Positions 4,351 through 10,755 of a DNA stretch of 64,000 bases are shown piece by piece. A program made the translations under genes and the position numbers. Each line of letters opens with the position of its first letter. Within the stretch, counting starts at the first letter, position 1. Source of the DNA: the human T2T-CHM13v2.0 reference genome, Homo sapiens; assembly GCF_009914755.1 (NCBI RefSeq), contig NC_060932.1. The stretch is one strand, 5' to 3'. The notes beneath the pieces are model-generated. The model was not told where the DNA came from, made no database searches, and saw only the letters and a list, made by a program, of their open reading frames with translations.

Positions 4351-5400
4351 GAAGCCAGAGAAGCTGCTTCCCACTTACTTCCCAGGCACTGCCTCTAAAG
4401 GTGATGTTTTATGTTTATACATATAGCATTCTATGATTTCATTCCATTCTGGAATGGTACTGAGTAATATAGGAGGGAGGAAATTCTAGGTCTGTGCCCT
4501 TACAATAGGCTGCGGTACTGAAAACCTCTGCTGGGGAATACTGTATGTATACATGAATATTTCCATAAACACGCTCATATCATCATGTATGTGTGTGTGT
4601 TTATTTATCTATCTATATCTGTCTATATTCATACAGAGTCACACTATAGAAAATAGAAGTATTGGTAGATGGAGGCAGTGAAAATAATATAAAAAGAAAC
4701 TTCCATACATGTGAAGACCTATCTGCCCTATAAGCCATAGCCACAATAGTACACAAATAAAGGTACACTCTGACATACATCCTGCTGCATTTCATATATA
4801 CTAGGAAACCATTCATTTTTGTTGCTCTTCTGTGAGTAGAAAAACGTATTAAGGCCAAAGCATCATTCATTGCAAGATCGATGTTAATCCTTCCTCCTCT
4901 GGTGAGCACCAGGCCAGAGATGAACCAGCCCCAGTCCAAAGGCCCTCGCCCAAATCTGAGAATGCCGACTTCTTCTCTTCAGGCTTTTCATCAGGACAGG
5001 AGCTTTATTTTTTTTCTATAAATGTGTGATGTAGGAATACACTCTTGTCGTTAATTTTTGCTGGCTGGAGAAAGGTCTTTTTGGTTATGGGAAGAGAAGC
5101 CTAGATATATTCCCTGAAAATAGACTGTTGTACTGAGAGCAAATGTTAGGGTGCATGGTACCTGGGCAAAAGGCAACAGGCCAGGGTCAACATGCACTCT
5201 AGGGCCAAAACTGGCTGTATCGGTCAGGCCAATTGTTCTTTTTGTCAAAGGCTTTACCCACTGATGTTAGCCAGCTCTTCCCAGTCCTAGCTGAATGGAC
5301 AGAACCCCACTGGGCTGGTTTCCTGAGCCCTTGAATTAAAAACACCTGGGTGCCAGGTAACACGGACTTTGTCACAGGTAGGAGAATGGAGTATGGTGTG

Positions 5401-5713
5401 TGGCTTGGATTAGATTCACCTGTAGTGAGCTAATTGGCTGATTGGATTCACTTGGGCTGGAGCAGCTGAAATGAGAGATGACCACTGACCTAGTTTTTTT
5501 ATGGGGCTTTCTTTTGTATATAGATAGGCACATAAGTAAACGCACACATACAGCATTATATGAGTATGTCTATGTAATGTTCATTTGTAAGTATGTCTGT
5601 GTAAAAAATCCCCAAATAAAATCTAGATTAAAGGTCATTTCAGATTACAGCCCCTGCAGCCCAGGTGAGTCAAATCAGCCAGTTAGCTCAGGCCAGGTGA
5701 GTCCAGTAAGCCA
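5401..5713. repeat. Long imperfect palindrome (fold-back) in unit 1; homologues at ~7121-7470, 8959-9280, 10465-10755
   Basis: tggcttggattagattcacctgtagtgagctaattggctgattggattcacttgggctg pairs with cagcccaggtgagtcaaatcagccagttagctcaggccaggtgagtccagtaagcca; gatgacc..acctagttttt..tggggcttt pairs with aaatcccca..aaaatctagatt..ggtcatt; symmetry centre ~5557. Confidence 0.9.
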
Positions 5714-6445
5714 ATGAGGTGACTCGGGACTGCTGAAGCATCAAGCGAAGCCAACAAGAATGGATGCGAAGAACACAGACATCCCTCGAGAAGGAGTGTA
5801 GGGCCCTGAGGTGCTGAGTGGGACATGACGCCTTATATGGCAGCACAGCTTGCTCACTTCCTGGACCTTTTGCCTGAAGGTGAAGCTTTATCTTTATATG
5901 GACAACAGTCTATGGTTGTGTTCCATCCTGGAATGGTATTGAACCATATAGGAGGGAAGAAAGACAAGATCTATGCCCTTACGATAGGCTGGAGTATTGA
6001 AAACATCTGTTGGGAAATATTGAATGTACACTGAATATTTCCAAAGGCATCTCATATAATACTCTATGCCTGTGTTTATCTACCTGTCTATACCTATATC
6101 CATATATGTATATATTGATATTCATACAGAGTAAAAGATATACAAGGTAAAAGTATTGCTAGGTATTAAAATAATAATATTAAAAAAGTTTCCATACATG
6201 TAAAGACCTATGTGCTCTATAAATGATATCTACATAGGACACAAATGAACATATACTCTAAATACATCCTGATGCATTCAATGTATACTAAGGAATGATT
6301 GATCCTTTCTGCTCACTTCTGTGAGCAGTAAATTCCCTAAGGCCATGGGAGTCATTCACTGCCAGGTCAGTCATGACCCTTTTCTTTCCAGTAGACACCA
6401 AGCCAGAGATTAATCAGACCTAGTTCCAAAGGCCTTCACCCAATT

Positions 6446-6749: not shown

Positions 6750-7592
6750 TGACAAGTACACTCTTGTTGTTCAGGGTTGGTTGTGGAGAAGGGTCTATTT
6801 GGGCAAAGAAAAAAACTCTAGGTCTGTTTCCTGAAGATAAACTGCAGCACTGAAAGCATATGTGAGAAAGCATGGTTCCTGGGCAAAAGGCAACTAGATT
6901 AGAGTGAACATGTGCCCAAGTGCCAAAGGCGGCCCTACTGGCCAGTCCAAAGGCTCTGTGTGTCAAAGACTACACCTACTGGTGTCTGCTATTTCTTAAC
7001 GGTCCTAGCTGGATGGCCATAACACCACTGGGCAGGTTGGAGGAGCTCCTGAATTAAAGAAAACCTCAGGTGCCAAATAACAAAGGCTTTTTTACAGGTA
7101 CAAGAACAGGAAGTGGTGTGTGGCTCAAATTGAGTTCACTTGGACTGAGCTAATTATCTGATTAGATACATCTAGGATGGAGGGGATGGAAACAAAAAAG
7201 ACCTCTGACCTAGTTTTCTTTTGGAGCTTTTCTTGTAGATATTTATATAAGTAGAAAGACCCATAAACACACACACAGGATTATATGATTATGTCTTTGT
7301 AATGTCCATTTTGTGAGTATGTCTATGTATAAAAGCCCAAATGAAAACTAGGTGAAAGTTTCTTCCATTTGCATCCCTCCAGTCCAGGTGAGTCTAATCA
7401 GCCAATTTGCCCAGCCCAGGTGAATCTGTTCAATTAGCTCAGCCTAGGTGAATCCAATCAGCATATAAGCTGAATTGGAACTGCTTAACAATCAAGGCAG
7501 GCCCACAGTGGTGGATATGAAGAATGCAGGCCTACATCAAGAAGGGAATCAGGGCCCTGAACTGTTAAGGTGGACAAAAAACCTTAAGTGGA

Positions 7593-7891
7593 GGCCAGGT
7601 GCGGTGGCTCATGGCTGTAATCCCAGCACTTTGGGAGGCCAAGGCAGGTGGATCATCTGAGGTCAAGAGTTTGAGACTAGACTGTCCAACATGATGAAAC
7701 CCCATCTCTACTAAAAATACAAAAATTAGCTGGGCGTGGTGGCAGGCACCGGTAATCCCAGCTACTTGGAAAGCTAAGGCAGGAAAATCGCTTGAACCCA
7801 GGAGGCTGAGGTTGCAGTGAGCAGAGATTGTGCCACTGCACTCCAGCTTGGGCAGAAAGAGCAAAACTCCATCTCAAGAAAAAACAAAAAT
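7593..7891 (+). mobile_element. Alu (AluS) in array unit 2
   Basis: Full Alu; TSD aaaaaccttaagtgg at 7577-7591 and 7892-7906. Confidence 0.95.
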
Positions 7892-10755
7892 AAAAACCTT
7901 AAGTGGCAGTAGCAGTACCGCCAGGTTACCTGCCAGGACTTGCTCTTAAAATGAAACTTTATGTTAATACATACAATGTTCTATGGCTGTTTTTCATTCT
8001 AAGATGGTATTGAGCCCTATAGGAAGGAAGAAAGACTAAGTCTGCACCCTTAGGATTGTCAGGATTACTGAAAATGTCTGTTGGCAAGTATCAATGTATA
8101 CATGCATATTTACACAGAAATACTCATATATTTCTGTATGTGTGTGTATTTATATACATATCTGTATCTTTCTATCTATGTATCTATATTCATACAAGAT
8201 GTAGATATAGAAGGTAGAAGTATTGATATTTTTAGGTCCTGACAGTAATATCAAACGTCCATCCATGAAGAGGCCTATCTGCCCTATAAACTGTATCTAT
8301 AATAGTAAGAAAATGGAAGCACACTGTGACATACATCCTGCTGCACTTAATGTATGCTAAGGAGCCATTGGTCCTTGTTGCTCCCTTCTGTCAGCAGAAA
8401 TGCACTAAGGCCATGGGAGCCACTCACTGCTATGTCAATGTTGACTTTCCCCTTTCTTATGAACACCAGGTCAGAAATGAACCAGCCCCAGCCCAATGGC
8501 CCTAACACAAATTCAAAAATAATGACTCCTTACTAGGGCTCCCATCAAGACAGGAGCTCTTCTTTTTTTCTATGAACATGGAACATAAGAGTACAGTCTT
8601 GTCTTTTGGTTTTGGTGGCTGGAGAAGGGTCTTTTGGGGTAGGGCAAAGAAAGTATAGGTTTGTGCCCTGAAGGTAGACTGTGGTACTAAAAACAGATGT
8701 CAGGGAATGTGGTACTCAGGCAAAAGAAAACTAGGCCAGAGTCAAAGTGTGCTGTACTGCCAAAAGAGGCTCTTAAAGACCAGGCCAATGATTCCTTTTT
8801 CTGAAGTCTACACCCACCCTCTGGTGCCAGCCAGCTCTGGCCTGTCCTACCTGGGTAACAAGAACCCTACTGGGTGATCTGATGAGCACCTGAATTAAAA
8901 ACACAAGTGTCAGATAACAATGACTTTTTCCACAGATACAAGAATGGGAAGTGGTGTGTGGCTTGGACTAGATTTATTTGGTCTGAGGTAATTGGCTGAT
9001 TGGATTCTTCTGGGATGGAGGGGATAGAAGTGGAAGTGATCTCTGACCTAGTTTCTTTGGGGGCTTTTTGTTGTAGATATAGACATGAATAGAAACATAA
9101 ACAATCACACATATACAGGGTTATATGAGTATGTCTATGTAATGTCCATTTGTGAGCATGGCTATGTAAAAGAAGCCCAAATAAAACCTAGGTAAAAGGC
9201 CATTTCTGTTTACATCCTCTCCAACCCAGGTACATGTAATTATTCAATTTGCTCAGCCCAGATGAATCTATTCAGCCAATAAGCTCAGCATAGGTGAATC
9301 CAATCAGCTCATTAGTCAAATTGGCAGTGCTGAAGGATCAAGACAGGATCTCAGCAGTGGAAATGAGCAGTGCAGGAATCTGCCAAGGAGAGCAGGGCCC
9401 TGTTGTCCTAAGCTGGGCCTGCCTTACATGGCAATACTGCCGGCTTACTTGCCAGGCATTGCCCCTAAAGGTGAAGCTTTGTTTATGTTTATACATACAA
9501 CATTCCATGGTTGTGTTCTATTCTGAGATGGTATAGAGCCATATATGACAAAAGTCTAGTTCTACACGCTTAAGATAGGCAGAATTATTCAAAATGTATG
9601 TTGGTGAACATTGTATGTATACATGAATATTTACAGAGACATATAATCTTGTGTGTTTTTATCTACCTATCTCTACATCAGCCAATTATCGATATTTATA
9701 TAGAGTCTAGGTAGAGAGGGTAGATGTATTGATATTTATTGGTACTGATGGTAATATAAAAAGAAACTTCCATACATGGTAAAGGCCTCTCTGCCCTATC
9801 ACCTACACCTACAAATAAACAAATGGAGGTCCACTGTGGCATACATCCTGCTGCAGTCAATGTACACTAAGGAACCACTGGCCCTTGTTGCTCACTTCTG
9901 TGAGCAGAAAACGCAATAAGGCCATGGGAGTCATTCATTAGCAGGTCAGTGTTGACCCCTTCCATTCTGGTGAACACAAGGCAGAGATAAACCAGCCCCA
10001 GCACAAAGACTCTCACACAGATTTGAGAGTGCTCATTTTCATTAGGGCTCCCATCAAGACAGGGGCACTTCCTTTTTTCTATGAACATATGACATAGGAG
10101 TACACTTTTTTCAGTTTTGGTGGCTTGAGAAGTGTCCTTTTGTATAGGAGTAGAAAAGCCTACATCTGTTCTCTGAAACTAGACTTGGGCACTGAACATA
10201 AATGCCAGGGAATGTGATACCCAAGCAAAAGACAACCAGGCCAGAATCATCAGTCACTGAAGTACCAAAAGTGACACGTGTTGGCCAAGTCAAAGAATTA
10301 TTGTGTTGAATGCTACACCCACTGGTGTCAGCCAGCTCTGCCCAGTCTTAGCTGGCTGGCCAGTACCCCACTGAGCTAATTTGATGAGCTCCTGATTTTA
10401 AAACACTTGGGTACCAGGTTGGGAGGATATTTTCACAGGTGCAAGAAAATTGGGAAGCCATGCATGGCTCTGATTTGATTTACTTTAACTGAACTAACTG
10501 GCTGAATTGATTCACCTGGGCTCAAGAGGAGTGACAGAAAAATGACTTCCAACCTAGGTTTTTTTCTGCTTGGCTGTTTTGGTAGATATATAGATATAGG
10601 TAGGTAGGTACATAAACACATACACATATGCACATACATGATTATATGAATGTCTATAATGTCCATTTGTAAATATTTCTATGTGAAAAAGTCACAAATG
10701 CAAATGAGGTAAAAGTTATTTCCATTTCCTCCAGCCCAAATGAGTCAAATCAGCC

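What the first reader, a model, noticed from the sequence alone, without database searches (positions are those of the whole stretch)
4374..10755. Four-copy ~1.5-kb tandem array of a unit I cannot assign to any known TE or satellite family
Seen: four head-to-tail units (starts ~4374, 5852, 7924, 9443) with the same motif order but heavy divergence, no conserved ORF, and two AluS insertions confined to unit 2. Inference: amplification predates or overlaps the AluS period, so this is an old macrosatellite relic rather than a recent VNTR. I do not recognise LTR, LINE, SINE or TIR hallmarks in the unit, so it may be an unannotated repeat family.
Basis: partly seen in the sequence, partly recalled or inferred. 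Interest (0 to 1): 0.75.

Follow-up and report, generated by a model that had tools for sequence, protein, structure and literature searches.

The report
Fossil tandem repeat shared with chr19
Four worn-out 1.5-kb tandem copies near the chromosome 8 centromere belong to a low-copy human repeat family that also forms arrays in the chromosome 19 zinc-finger gene region and has scattered single copies elsewhere, and they are likely an inactive early offshoot of that family, which may not be catalogued.

Summary
The array is real: four head-to-tail units of about 1.5 kb, 70-76% identical, with two Alus only in unit 2, no coding remnant, and a 310-bp hairpin inside each unit. It is not a one-off. 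The same unit occurs at 14 sites in chr19:19.9-24.1 Mb (the 19p12 KRAB zinc-finger region; tandem at 9) and at 7q11. At 3 of 6 array sites whose flanks I read, it touches the same 38/71-bp satellite that follows it here. At least 28 dispersed fragments exist. Eleven belong to a non-tandem form that lacks the hairpin insert; most of these run past the tandem junction into a distinct 3' tail. One chr15 copy spans the junction and has a 15-bp target-site duplication. Trees rooted on the non-tandem form place the chr8 units outside the 19p12/7q11 clade. The units are about 2.5 times more diverged than Alu pairs, so the array clearly predates AluS. Best reading: a neutral fossil macrosatellite that grew from an old mobile monomer. 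It is not LTR70. Dfam and RepBase could not be searched, so whether it is uncatalogued stays open (about even odds).

The parts
4367..4408 (+). Tail of a fifth, almost lost unit, ending in the junction motif. A weaker remnant may reach back to about 4245.
   Evidence: the upstream remnant beats shuffles against 1 of 4 unit ends (2/500) and marginally against a second (22/500)
4409..5887 (+). Unit 1 (1479 bp, junction to junction)
5401..5716 (.). Internal imperfect palindrome of unit 1 (arms about 100 bp, 76% complementary); predicted long hairpin
   Evidence: I19; fold -146.3 kcal/mol, z -12.7, 0 of 100 shuffles as good
5731..5979 (.). RefSeq 'silencer' lying over the end of unit 1 and the unit 1/2 junction
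   Evidence: hub annotation; position relative to the junction; activity not tested here
5888..7958 (+). Unit 2 (2071 bp including two Alus)
6444..6754 (-). Alu (AluS-like, recalled), no target-site duplication, about 75 bp of the unit missing at the site
7587..7904 (+). Alu (AluS-like, recalled) with a 15-bp target-site duplication
7959..9478 (+). Unit 3 (1520 bp), the most complete unit; palindrome at 8959-9280
   Evidence: hairpin z -6.7, 0 of 100 shuffles
9479..10755 (+). Unit 4, cut at the 32-bp motif of the right palindrome arm where the satellite begins
10756..11386 (+). 38-bp satellite of the 19p12/7p11/7q11/16p11 type
   Evidence: D1 (36-38 bp spacing); (hits up to 79% identical on chr19, chr7, chr16)
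11387..11600 (+). 64-72-bp satellite variant; holds exon 1 of the predicted lncRNA LOC105375815 (11437-11591)
   Evidence: period 64; same 38-then-72-bp order at chr19:23.056-23.059 Mb; hub annotation

Best explanation
This is a four-unit array of a low-copy repeat family that also forms arrays in the 19p12 and 7q11 regions, and it is likely an inactive, neutrally decaying macrosatellite that arose by tandem amplification of an older, likely RNA-mobilised, non-coding monomer. Steps: (1) A non-tandem form exists as dispersed copies (shown); that it is ancestral is inferred. (2) One lineage gained a ~190-bp inverted insert that made the hairpin, and a head-to-tail junction right after AAAGGTGAAGCT (differences shown; order inferred). 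(3) It amplified, likely by unequal exchange, early in primate evolution (roughly 55-90 Myr, inferred), then stopped homogenising. (4) It came to lie next to the 38/71-bp satellite (shown). (5) The chr8 cassette split off before the lineage that later spread with the zinc-finger duplications (tree shown; root inferred). (6) Arrays were occasionally transcribed and reinserted, likely by L1 machinery (one clear case). No present function is implied.
For: Family: 14 sites on chr19:19.9-24.1 Mb plus chr7:65.8 Mb, tandem in the fetched DNA at 9 chr19 sites. Low copy: 6-55 first-look candidates for pure unit queries, against 3665 for a Tigger-like control. Junction: array units continue with a T-rich start after the motif, while monomer copies (chr1, 11, 12, 17, 20) continue into a shared 3' tail; that tail was found only at dispersed sites among 68 held records. 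Six monomers lack the hairpin insert. Mobility: the chr15:90.44 Mb copy crosses the junction twice and has a 14/15 duplication (0 of 985 random pairs score as high). The chr1:158.13 Mb copy ends in a 19-A run inside an L1-type host that is continuous elsewhere. The chr20 copy interrupts a Tc5/pogo transposase relic with empty sites elsewhere. The chr4:137.28 Mb fragment is sister to one chr19 unit (100/99). Neutral decay: star-like trees, gamma shape 6-11, same-array chr19 units K2P 0.41 while matching units in duplicated arrays differ by 3-16%. Position of chr8: monomers are one side of a branch (99/97) and 19p12/7q11 units another (96/95; 100/100 in a second segment), with chr8 between them.
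Against: Only 1 of 15 dispersed copies examined has a clear target-site duplication. The chr1 A-run starts at the AATAAA itself, not downstream of it, and the chr20 duplication is doubtful. The 5' end of the monomer was never found, so its class (retroposed transcript, LTR, L1 fragment) is not shown. The root rests on taking the monomers as ancestral. The chr8 units are a clade with one dispersed copy in two trees but unresolved in two others (AU p 0.447). The trees use only 180-320 columns and a part of all chr19 units. The satellite was absent from the fetched flanks of 3 of 6 arrays (20.84, 20.86, 22.25 Mb). It lies downstream of the units on chr8 but upstream of them on chr19/chr7. Nothing else in the window is shared with those regions except common interspersed repeats, and no zinc-finger motif was found. 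Dating is soft: dispersed copies have shorter branches than array units, and mutation is reported as 2.2-3.8-fold faster around the chr8 centromere (PMC8099727, passage).
Confidence: 0.6

Rival explanations
1. The monomer is the long LTR, or a non-coding internal part, of an old endogenous retrovirus that may already be catalogued, and the arrays are tandem copies of part of it.
For: The 3' tail has AATAAA followed 40-60 bp later by the end of homology, ending TTACA in the chr20 copy. The unit carries a 32-bp CCAAT-containing motif, expanded to 12 copies at one chr19 site, as long LTRs do (recalled). The monomers form a graded series of subfamilies, 60-77% identical.
Against: No TG...CA ends with a 4-6-bp duplication were seen at any copy read. 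No copy is paired with internal viral sequence. Six frames each of unit 3 and two monomers gave no significant Pfam hit (1 sub-threshold hit in 18 frames). The LTR70 locus shares only an Alu with the arrays. CCAAT counts in the four chr8 palindromes do not beat shuffles (p 0.06-0.75).
Confidence: 0.2
2. The chr8 array is simply a late pericentromeric duplicate of a piece of a 19p12/7q11 zinc-finger duplicon.
For: Unit and satellite occur together at both places, with the same 38-then-72-bp order. The locus is pericentromeric.
Against: No chr8 unit has a close chr19 partner (smallest p-distance 0.24-0.28, whereas duplicated chr19 arrays pair at 0.03-0.16). The chr8 units fall outside the 19p12/7q11 clade. 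No shared flank and no zinc-finger remnant.
Confidence: 0.1
3. The unit is a maintained regulatory or structural element (silencer, bidirectional promoter or dsRNA hairpin) of zinc-finger cassettes.
For: A RefSeq silencer covers the unit 1/2 junction and a predicted lncRNA starts in the adjacent satellite (hub table). The hairpin of unit 1 is still very stable (z -12.7). The chr15 copy implies that arrays were once transcribed.
Against: Rates are nearly uniform across sites. A shorter variant in chr19, chr15 and chr12 copies has lost about 340 bp including the left hairpin arm. CpG is depleted as in the rest of the window (o/e 0-0.32 against 0.14).
Confidence: 0.1

Closest known systems
19p12 beta-satellite blocks (38-bp and ~71-bp) of the ZNF91-family cluster (Eichler 1998: paper not held, periods recalled; PMC3018141 passage and PMC2588610 table seen)
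   Same: The satellite that cuts unit 4 hits chr19p12, chr7 and chr16 arrays at up to 79%. PMC2588610 lists a 49.8-kb 38-bp array at 19p12, and PMC3018141 says the 19p12 cluster is interspersed with beta-satellite blocks.
   Different: The 1.5-kb unit is a separate sequence; its 32-bp motif is not significantly related to either satellite. The passages I read do not mention a 1.5-kb unit.
LTR70 / TROJAN (PMC6402854, passages)
   Same: About 1.3 kb, low copy, concentrated in 19p12 zinc-finger loci.
   Different: Described in first introns. The 3-kb locus found with the paper's shRNA 21-mer shares only an Alu with the arrays.
T2T composite repeats and macrosatellites such as SST1, MER5A1 and ZAV (bioRxiv 10.1101/2021.07.12.451456, PMC2588610 and PMC3018141, passages)
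   Same: Kilobase-scale units in head-to-tail arrays, attributed to unequal crossing over, some near zinc-finger genes.
   Different: Those are generally homogenised arrays (recalled). This one is 25-30% diverged, about 42% G+C and only four units long, and no known TE subunit was recognised. The preprint's repeat tables were not readable.
L1-mobilised retrocopies (processed pseudogene type)
   Same: A 15-bp A-rich target-site duplication (chr15), an A-run (chr1), and variable truncation.
   Different: No source gene or ORF was found, and 14 of 15 dispersed copies lack a clear duplication.

Membership tests
Macrosatellite (tandem array of kb-scale units) | Head-to-tail units over 1 kb | tested here: met
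Active macrosatellite / VNTR | High unit identity from ongoing homogenisation | tested here: not met
   K2P 0.27-0.42 between units
Active macrosatellite / VNTR | Copy-number variation among people | not testable with these tools
   only one human assembly is held
LTR70 | Sequence homology to the TROJAN LTR70 locus | tested here: not met
   only Alu matches; best other hit E 0.32
ERV long terminal repeat | TG...CA ends with a 4-6-bp target-site duplication | tested here: inconclusive
   not seen at the copies read, but all are truncated and the 5' end is unknown
ERV / LINE / DNA transposon coding part | gag, pol, env, ORF1/2 or transposase remnant | tested here: not met
   no significant Pfam hit in 18 frames; positive control on the chr20 host element gave HTH_Tnp_Tc5, E 3e-06
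MITE / non-autonomous DNA transposon | Inverted repeats at the element's termini, dispersed as a unit | tested here: not met
   the palindrome is internal and absent from 6 of 6 monomers aligned; one isolated hairpin fragment at chr3:152.58 Mb lies between L1-type tails
L1-mobilised retrocopy family | 7-20-bp target-site duplication and A-tail | tested here: inconclusive
   clear in 1 of 15; A-run with a degenerate duplication at chr1:158.13 Mb
19p12-type 38/71-bp satellite (for 10756-11600) | 38-bp period and homology to 19p12 arrays | tested here: met
Any Dfam/RepBase/T2T-library repeat (SATR1/2, HSAT5, REP522, MER, L1M 5' ends and others) | Match to the library model over most of the unit | not testable with these tools
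   no such library is held; motif search of papers found 0
Rfam RNA families (miRNA hairpins and others) | Score at the gathering threshold | tested here: not met
   14 sub-threshold hits, from Alus and simple repeats

The most novel reading that the evidence does not exclude
An uncatalogued, L1-dependent retroposon lineage that gave rise to a hairpin-bearing 1.5-kb macrosatellite. This unit and the 38/71-bp satellite form the ancestral spacer cassette of the primate ZNF91-family duplicon, and the gene-less 8q11 array is its earliest surviving branch, giving a marker for ordering and dating the expansion of the largest human zinc-finger cluster.
Probability: 0.3. Interest if true: 0.65.

Novelty: new member of a known kind. 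Interest (0 to 1): 0.45.

Why it matters
A repeat family with dozens of copies that is still unnamed in the finished human genome would be a small surprise. Its value is as a marker. Units inside each array are long diverged (K2P about 0.4), but matching units in duplicated arrays differ by only 3-16%, so they can order the duplications of the 19p12 zinc-finger region independently of the fast-evolving genes. The family also preserves, in one genome, a likely series from dispersed monomer to tandem array to reinserted copy. No function is shown, so medical or regulatory importance is not claimed.

Tried and rejected
LTR70: rejected. The idea that the 38/71-bp satellite grew from the unit's 32-bp motif: not supported; 8 tests gave 6-194 of 200 shuffles at or above the observed score, and one of 4 control tests gave 7 of 200. 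CCAAT enrichment and CpG retention as signs of a promoter: not significant. Zinc-finger remnants near the array: 0 motifs in the window, in the 10 kb upstream and in 9 chr19/chr7 stretches. miRNA or other RNA family: none. tRNA genes in the window: none. The first ~300 bp as an LTR flanking an internal part (suggested by the chr15 copy): dropped, because dispersed pieces come from all parts of the unit and the chr15 ends carry a 15-bp duplication. The 340-bp deletion as a spliced intron: dropped, because it is also present in chr19 arrays. Literature: 8 searches found no description of a 1.5-kb unit. Eichler 1998, Hamilton 2006 and the journal version of the T2T repeat paper were not held. The one supplement of PMC12058530 was unreadable and the supplements of the bioRxiv preprints were not read; their repeat tables could name this family.
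Full report
Observation. The array exists as described. Self-BLAST shows four colinear units at about 70% gapped identity, spaced 1479, 2071 and about 1520 bp apart. Gap-free identity is 0.72-0.79 over 12 block pairs. Two Alus lie in unit 2 only. The second has a 15-bp duplication; the first has none and about 75 bp of unit is missing there. Tandem Repeats Finder misses the array because its period limit is 500. There is no conserved ORF, no significant Pfam hit and no Rfam family. Each unit contains an imperfect palindrome of about 310 bp, predicted to fold strongly in units 1 and 3 (z -12.7 and -6.7). 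Unit 4 stops at about 10755, where a 38-bp satellite and then a 64-72-bp variant begin.

The family. Three genome searches with real units (40 candidates scored in each, so counts are lower bounds) hit 14 sites in chr19:19.9-24.1 Mb and one at chr7:65.8 Mb. Fetched DNA shows two to seven tandem units at 9 of the chr19 sites. That this is the KRAB zinc-finger region follows from PMC6402854 (passages). It places LTR70 copies in ZNF93 and ZNF486 at hg19 20.02 and 20.29 Mb, and its TROJAN locus maps to 20.358 Mb here. PMC3018141 (passage) describes the 19p12 cluster as interspersed with beta-satellite. The satellite beside the chr8 array hits chr19, chr7 and chr16 (40 of 506 candidates scored). 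It touches the unit arrays at 3 of 6 sites whose flanks I read (23.05, 24.14 and chr7), there on the upstream side. Apart from array, satellite and common interspersed repeats, the window shares nothing with those loci and has no zinc-finger motif. The family is low copy: 6-55 first-look candidates against 3665 for a transposon control.

Dispersed copies. At least 28 other sites carry fragments; I fetched 23 of them. Thirteen resemble array units, some with a 340-bp deletion also seen in chr19 arrays. Eleven (one of them not fetched) belong to a second form; four further unfetched sites are unassigned. This form lacks the ~190-bp inverted insert that creates the hairpin (6 of 6 aligned). After the motif AAAGGTGAAGCT it runs into a shared tail of up to about 260 bp instead of the next unit; three of the eleven (chrX:24.7, chr15:24.3 and chr15:68.3 Mb) end before that point. 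The tail occurs in no array among 68 held records. This fixes the tandem junction after window positions 4408, 5887, 7958 and 9478.

Evidence of mobility is real but thin. The chr15:90.44 Mb copy crosses the junction twice and is flanked by a 14/15 duplication that 0 of 985 random pairs match, but it is the only clear case among 15 copies screened. The chr1:158.13 Mb monomer ends in a 19-A run and splits an L1-type host that is continuous in the window (host name recalled). The chr20 monomer splits a Tc5/pogo transposase relic with intact empty sites at two other copies ('Tigger1' is recalled).

Age and relationships. The chr8 units differ by non-CpG K2P 0.30-0.34, against 0.10-0.15 for Alu pairs and 0.113 for the two Alus inside unit 2. 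The array is thus about 2.5 times older in substitutions than AluS. With a recalled AluS age of 35-40 Myr this gives up to about 90 Myr. Dispersed copies have shorter branches than array units, and faster mutation is reported around this centromere (PMC8099727, passage), so 55-90 Myr is the honest range. Units within one chr19 array differ by K2P 0.41, while matching units in duplicated arrays differ by 3-16%: the arrays froze before the duplications. No chr8 unit has such a partner. In two segments that include monomers, the 19p12/7q11 units form one side of a starred branch (100/100; 96/95) and the chr8 units lie between them and the monomers (monomer branch 90/91; 99/97). The chr8 units group with one dispersed copy in two trees and are unresolved in two; holding them together is not rejected (AU p 0.447). 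Rows covering under 60% or 75% of a segment were dropped. Gamma shapes of 6-11 suggest even, neutral change.

Mechanism. Shown: the array, the family, the two forms, the junction, the hairpin insert, contact with the satellite, one target-site duplication, and the tree shapes. Inferred: that the monomer is ancestral; that L1 machinery moved it; that unequal exchange built the arrays; that chr8 is an early offshoot; that nothing is functional now. The main rival is that the monomer is an old LTR or ERV part already in Dfam; the 3' tail with AATAAA and the CCAAT motif keep this open, but no termini or coding remnant support it. A late duplication from 19p12 and a maintained regulatory role fit worse.

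Known or new. It works like a TE-derived macrosatellite that stopped homogenising. It is not LTR70, not a MITE, and not the 38-bp satellite itself. Eight literature searches found no description. I saw only passages of 12 papers (PMC6402854, PMC7577720, PMC8125562, PMC2588610, PMC2443715, bioRxiv 2021.07.12.451456, PMC13644498, PMC3921586, PMC12058530, PMC3018141, PMC8099727, bioRxiv 2025.08.04.668424), plus a term search of the two supplements of PMC6402854. Eichler 1998 and Hamilton 2006 were not available, and repeat libraries and the T2T supplementary tables could not be consulted; any of these could already name the unit. I put the chance that it is uncatalogued over most of its length at about one half.

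Verdict. Real, old, multi-locus and probably neutral; interesting as a possibly unnamed family and as a marker of zinc-finger cluster history. Interest 0.45.

Noticed in passing
window 11437-11591: Exon 1 of the predicted lncRNA LOC105375815 lies inside the 64-72-bp satellite; no paper names this gene.
   Followed up: partly
window 11620-11806: The satellite is cut on its right by what looks like the 3' end of an LTR, ending TCAACA (identity recalled, MER4-group-like).
   Followed up: no
L032:604-991 (chr19:23.0526-23.0530 Mb): The unit's 32-bp CCAAT-containing motif, one copy in monomers and two or three in chr8 units, is expanded to 12 copies here and to several copies at other chr19 arrays.
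   Followed up: partly
L034:4860-5118 (chr11:117.503 Mb): A 15-bp CpG-rich minisatellite has grown inside the monomer copy.
   Followed up: no
L067 (chr2:97.909-97.911 Mb) and chr2:97.811 Mb: The most diverged monomer (60% to the chr20 copy over 900 bp), present twice in opposite orientation; a candidate for the oldest copy or a source locus.
   Followed up: partly
L061 (chr1:158.127-158.135 Mb): Nested history: the monomer sits in an L1-type element and is itself split by an Alu and a ~4-kb block that begins with an LTR-like sequence.
   Followed up: partly
window 4476-4539 versus unit position about 720-785: The unit has an older internal duplication (73% over 60 bp) and an inverted copy of its AT-rich segment inside the hairpin loop.
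   Followed up: partly
chr16:38.56-38.83 Mb, chr7:56.9 and 57.4 Mb: The 38-bp satellite also forms blocks here, with an apparent ~380-bp higher-order period; no 1.5-kb unit was hit at these sites.
   Followed up: no
window 27189-32541: A long L1-type element, 88% identical over 3.4 kb to one at chr19:20.857 Mb; ordinary.
   Followed up: no
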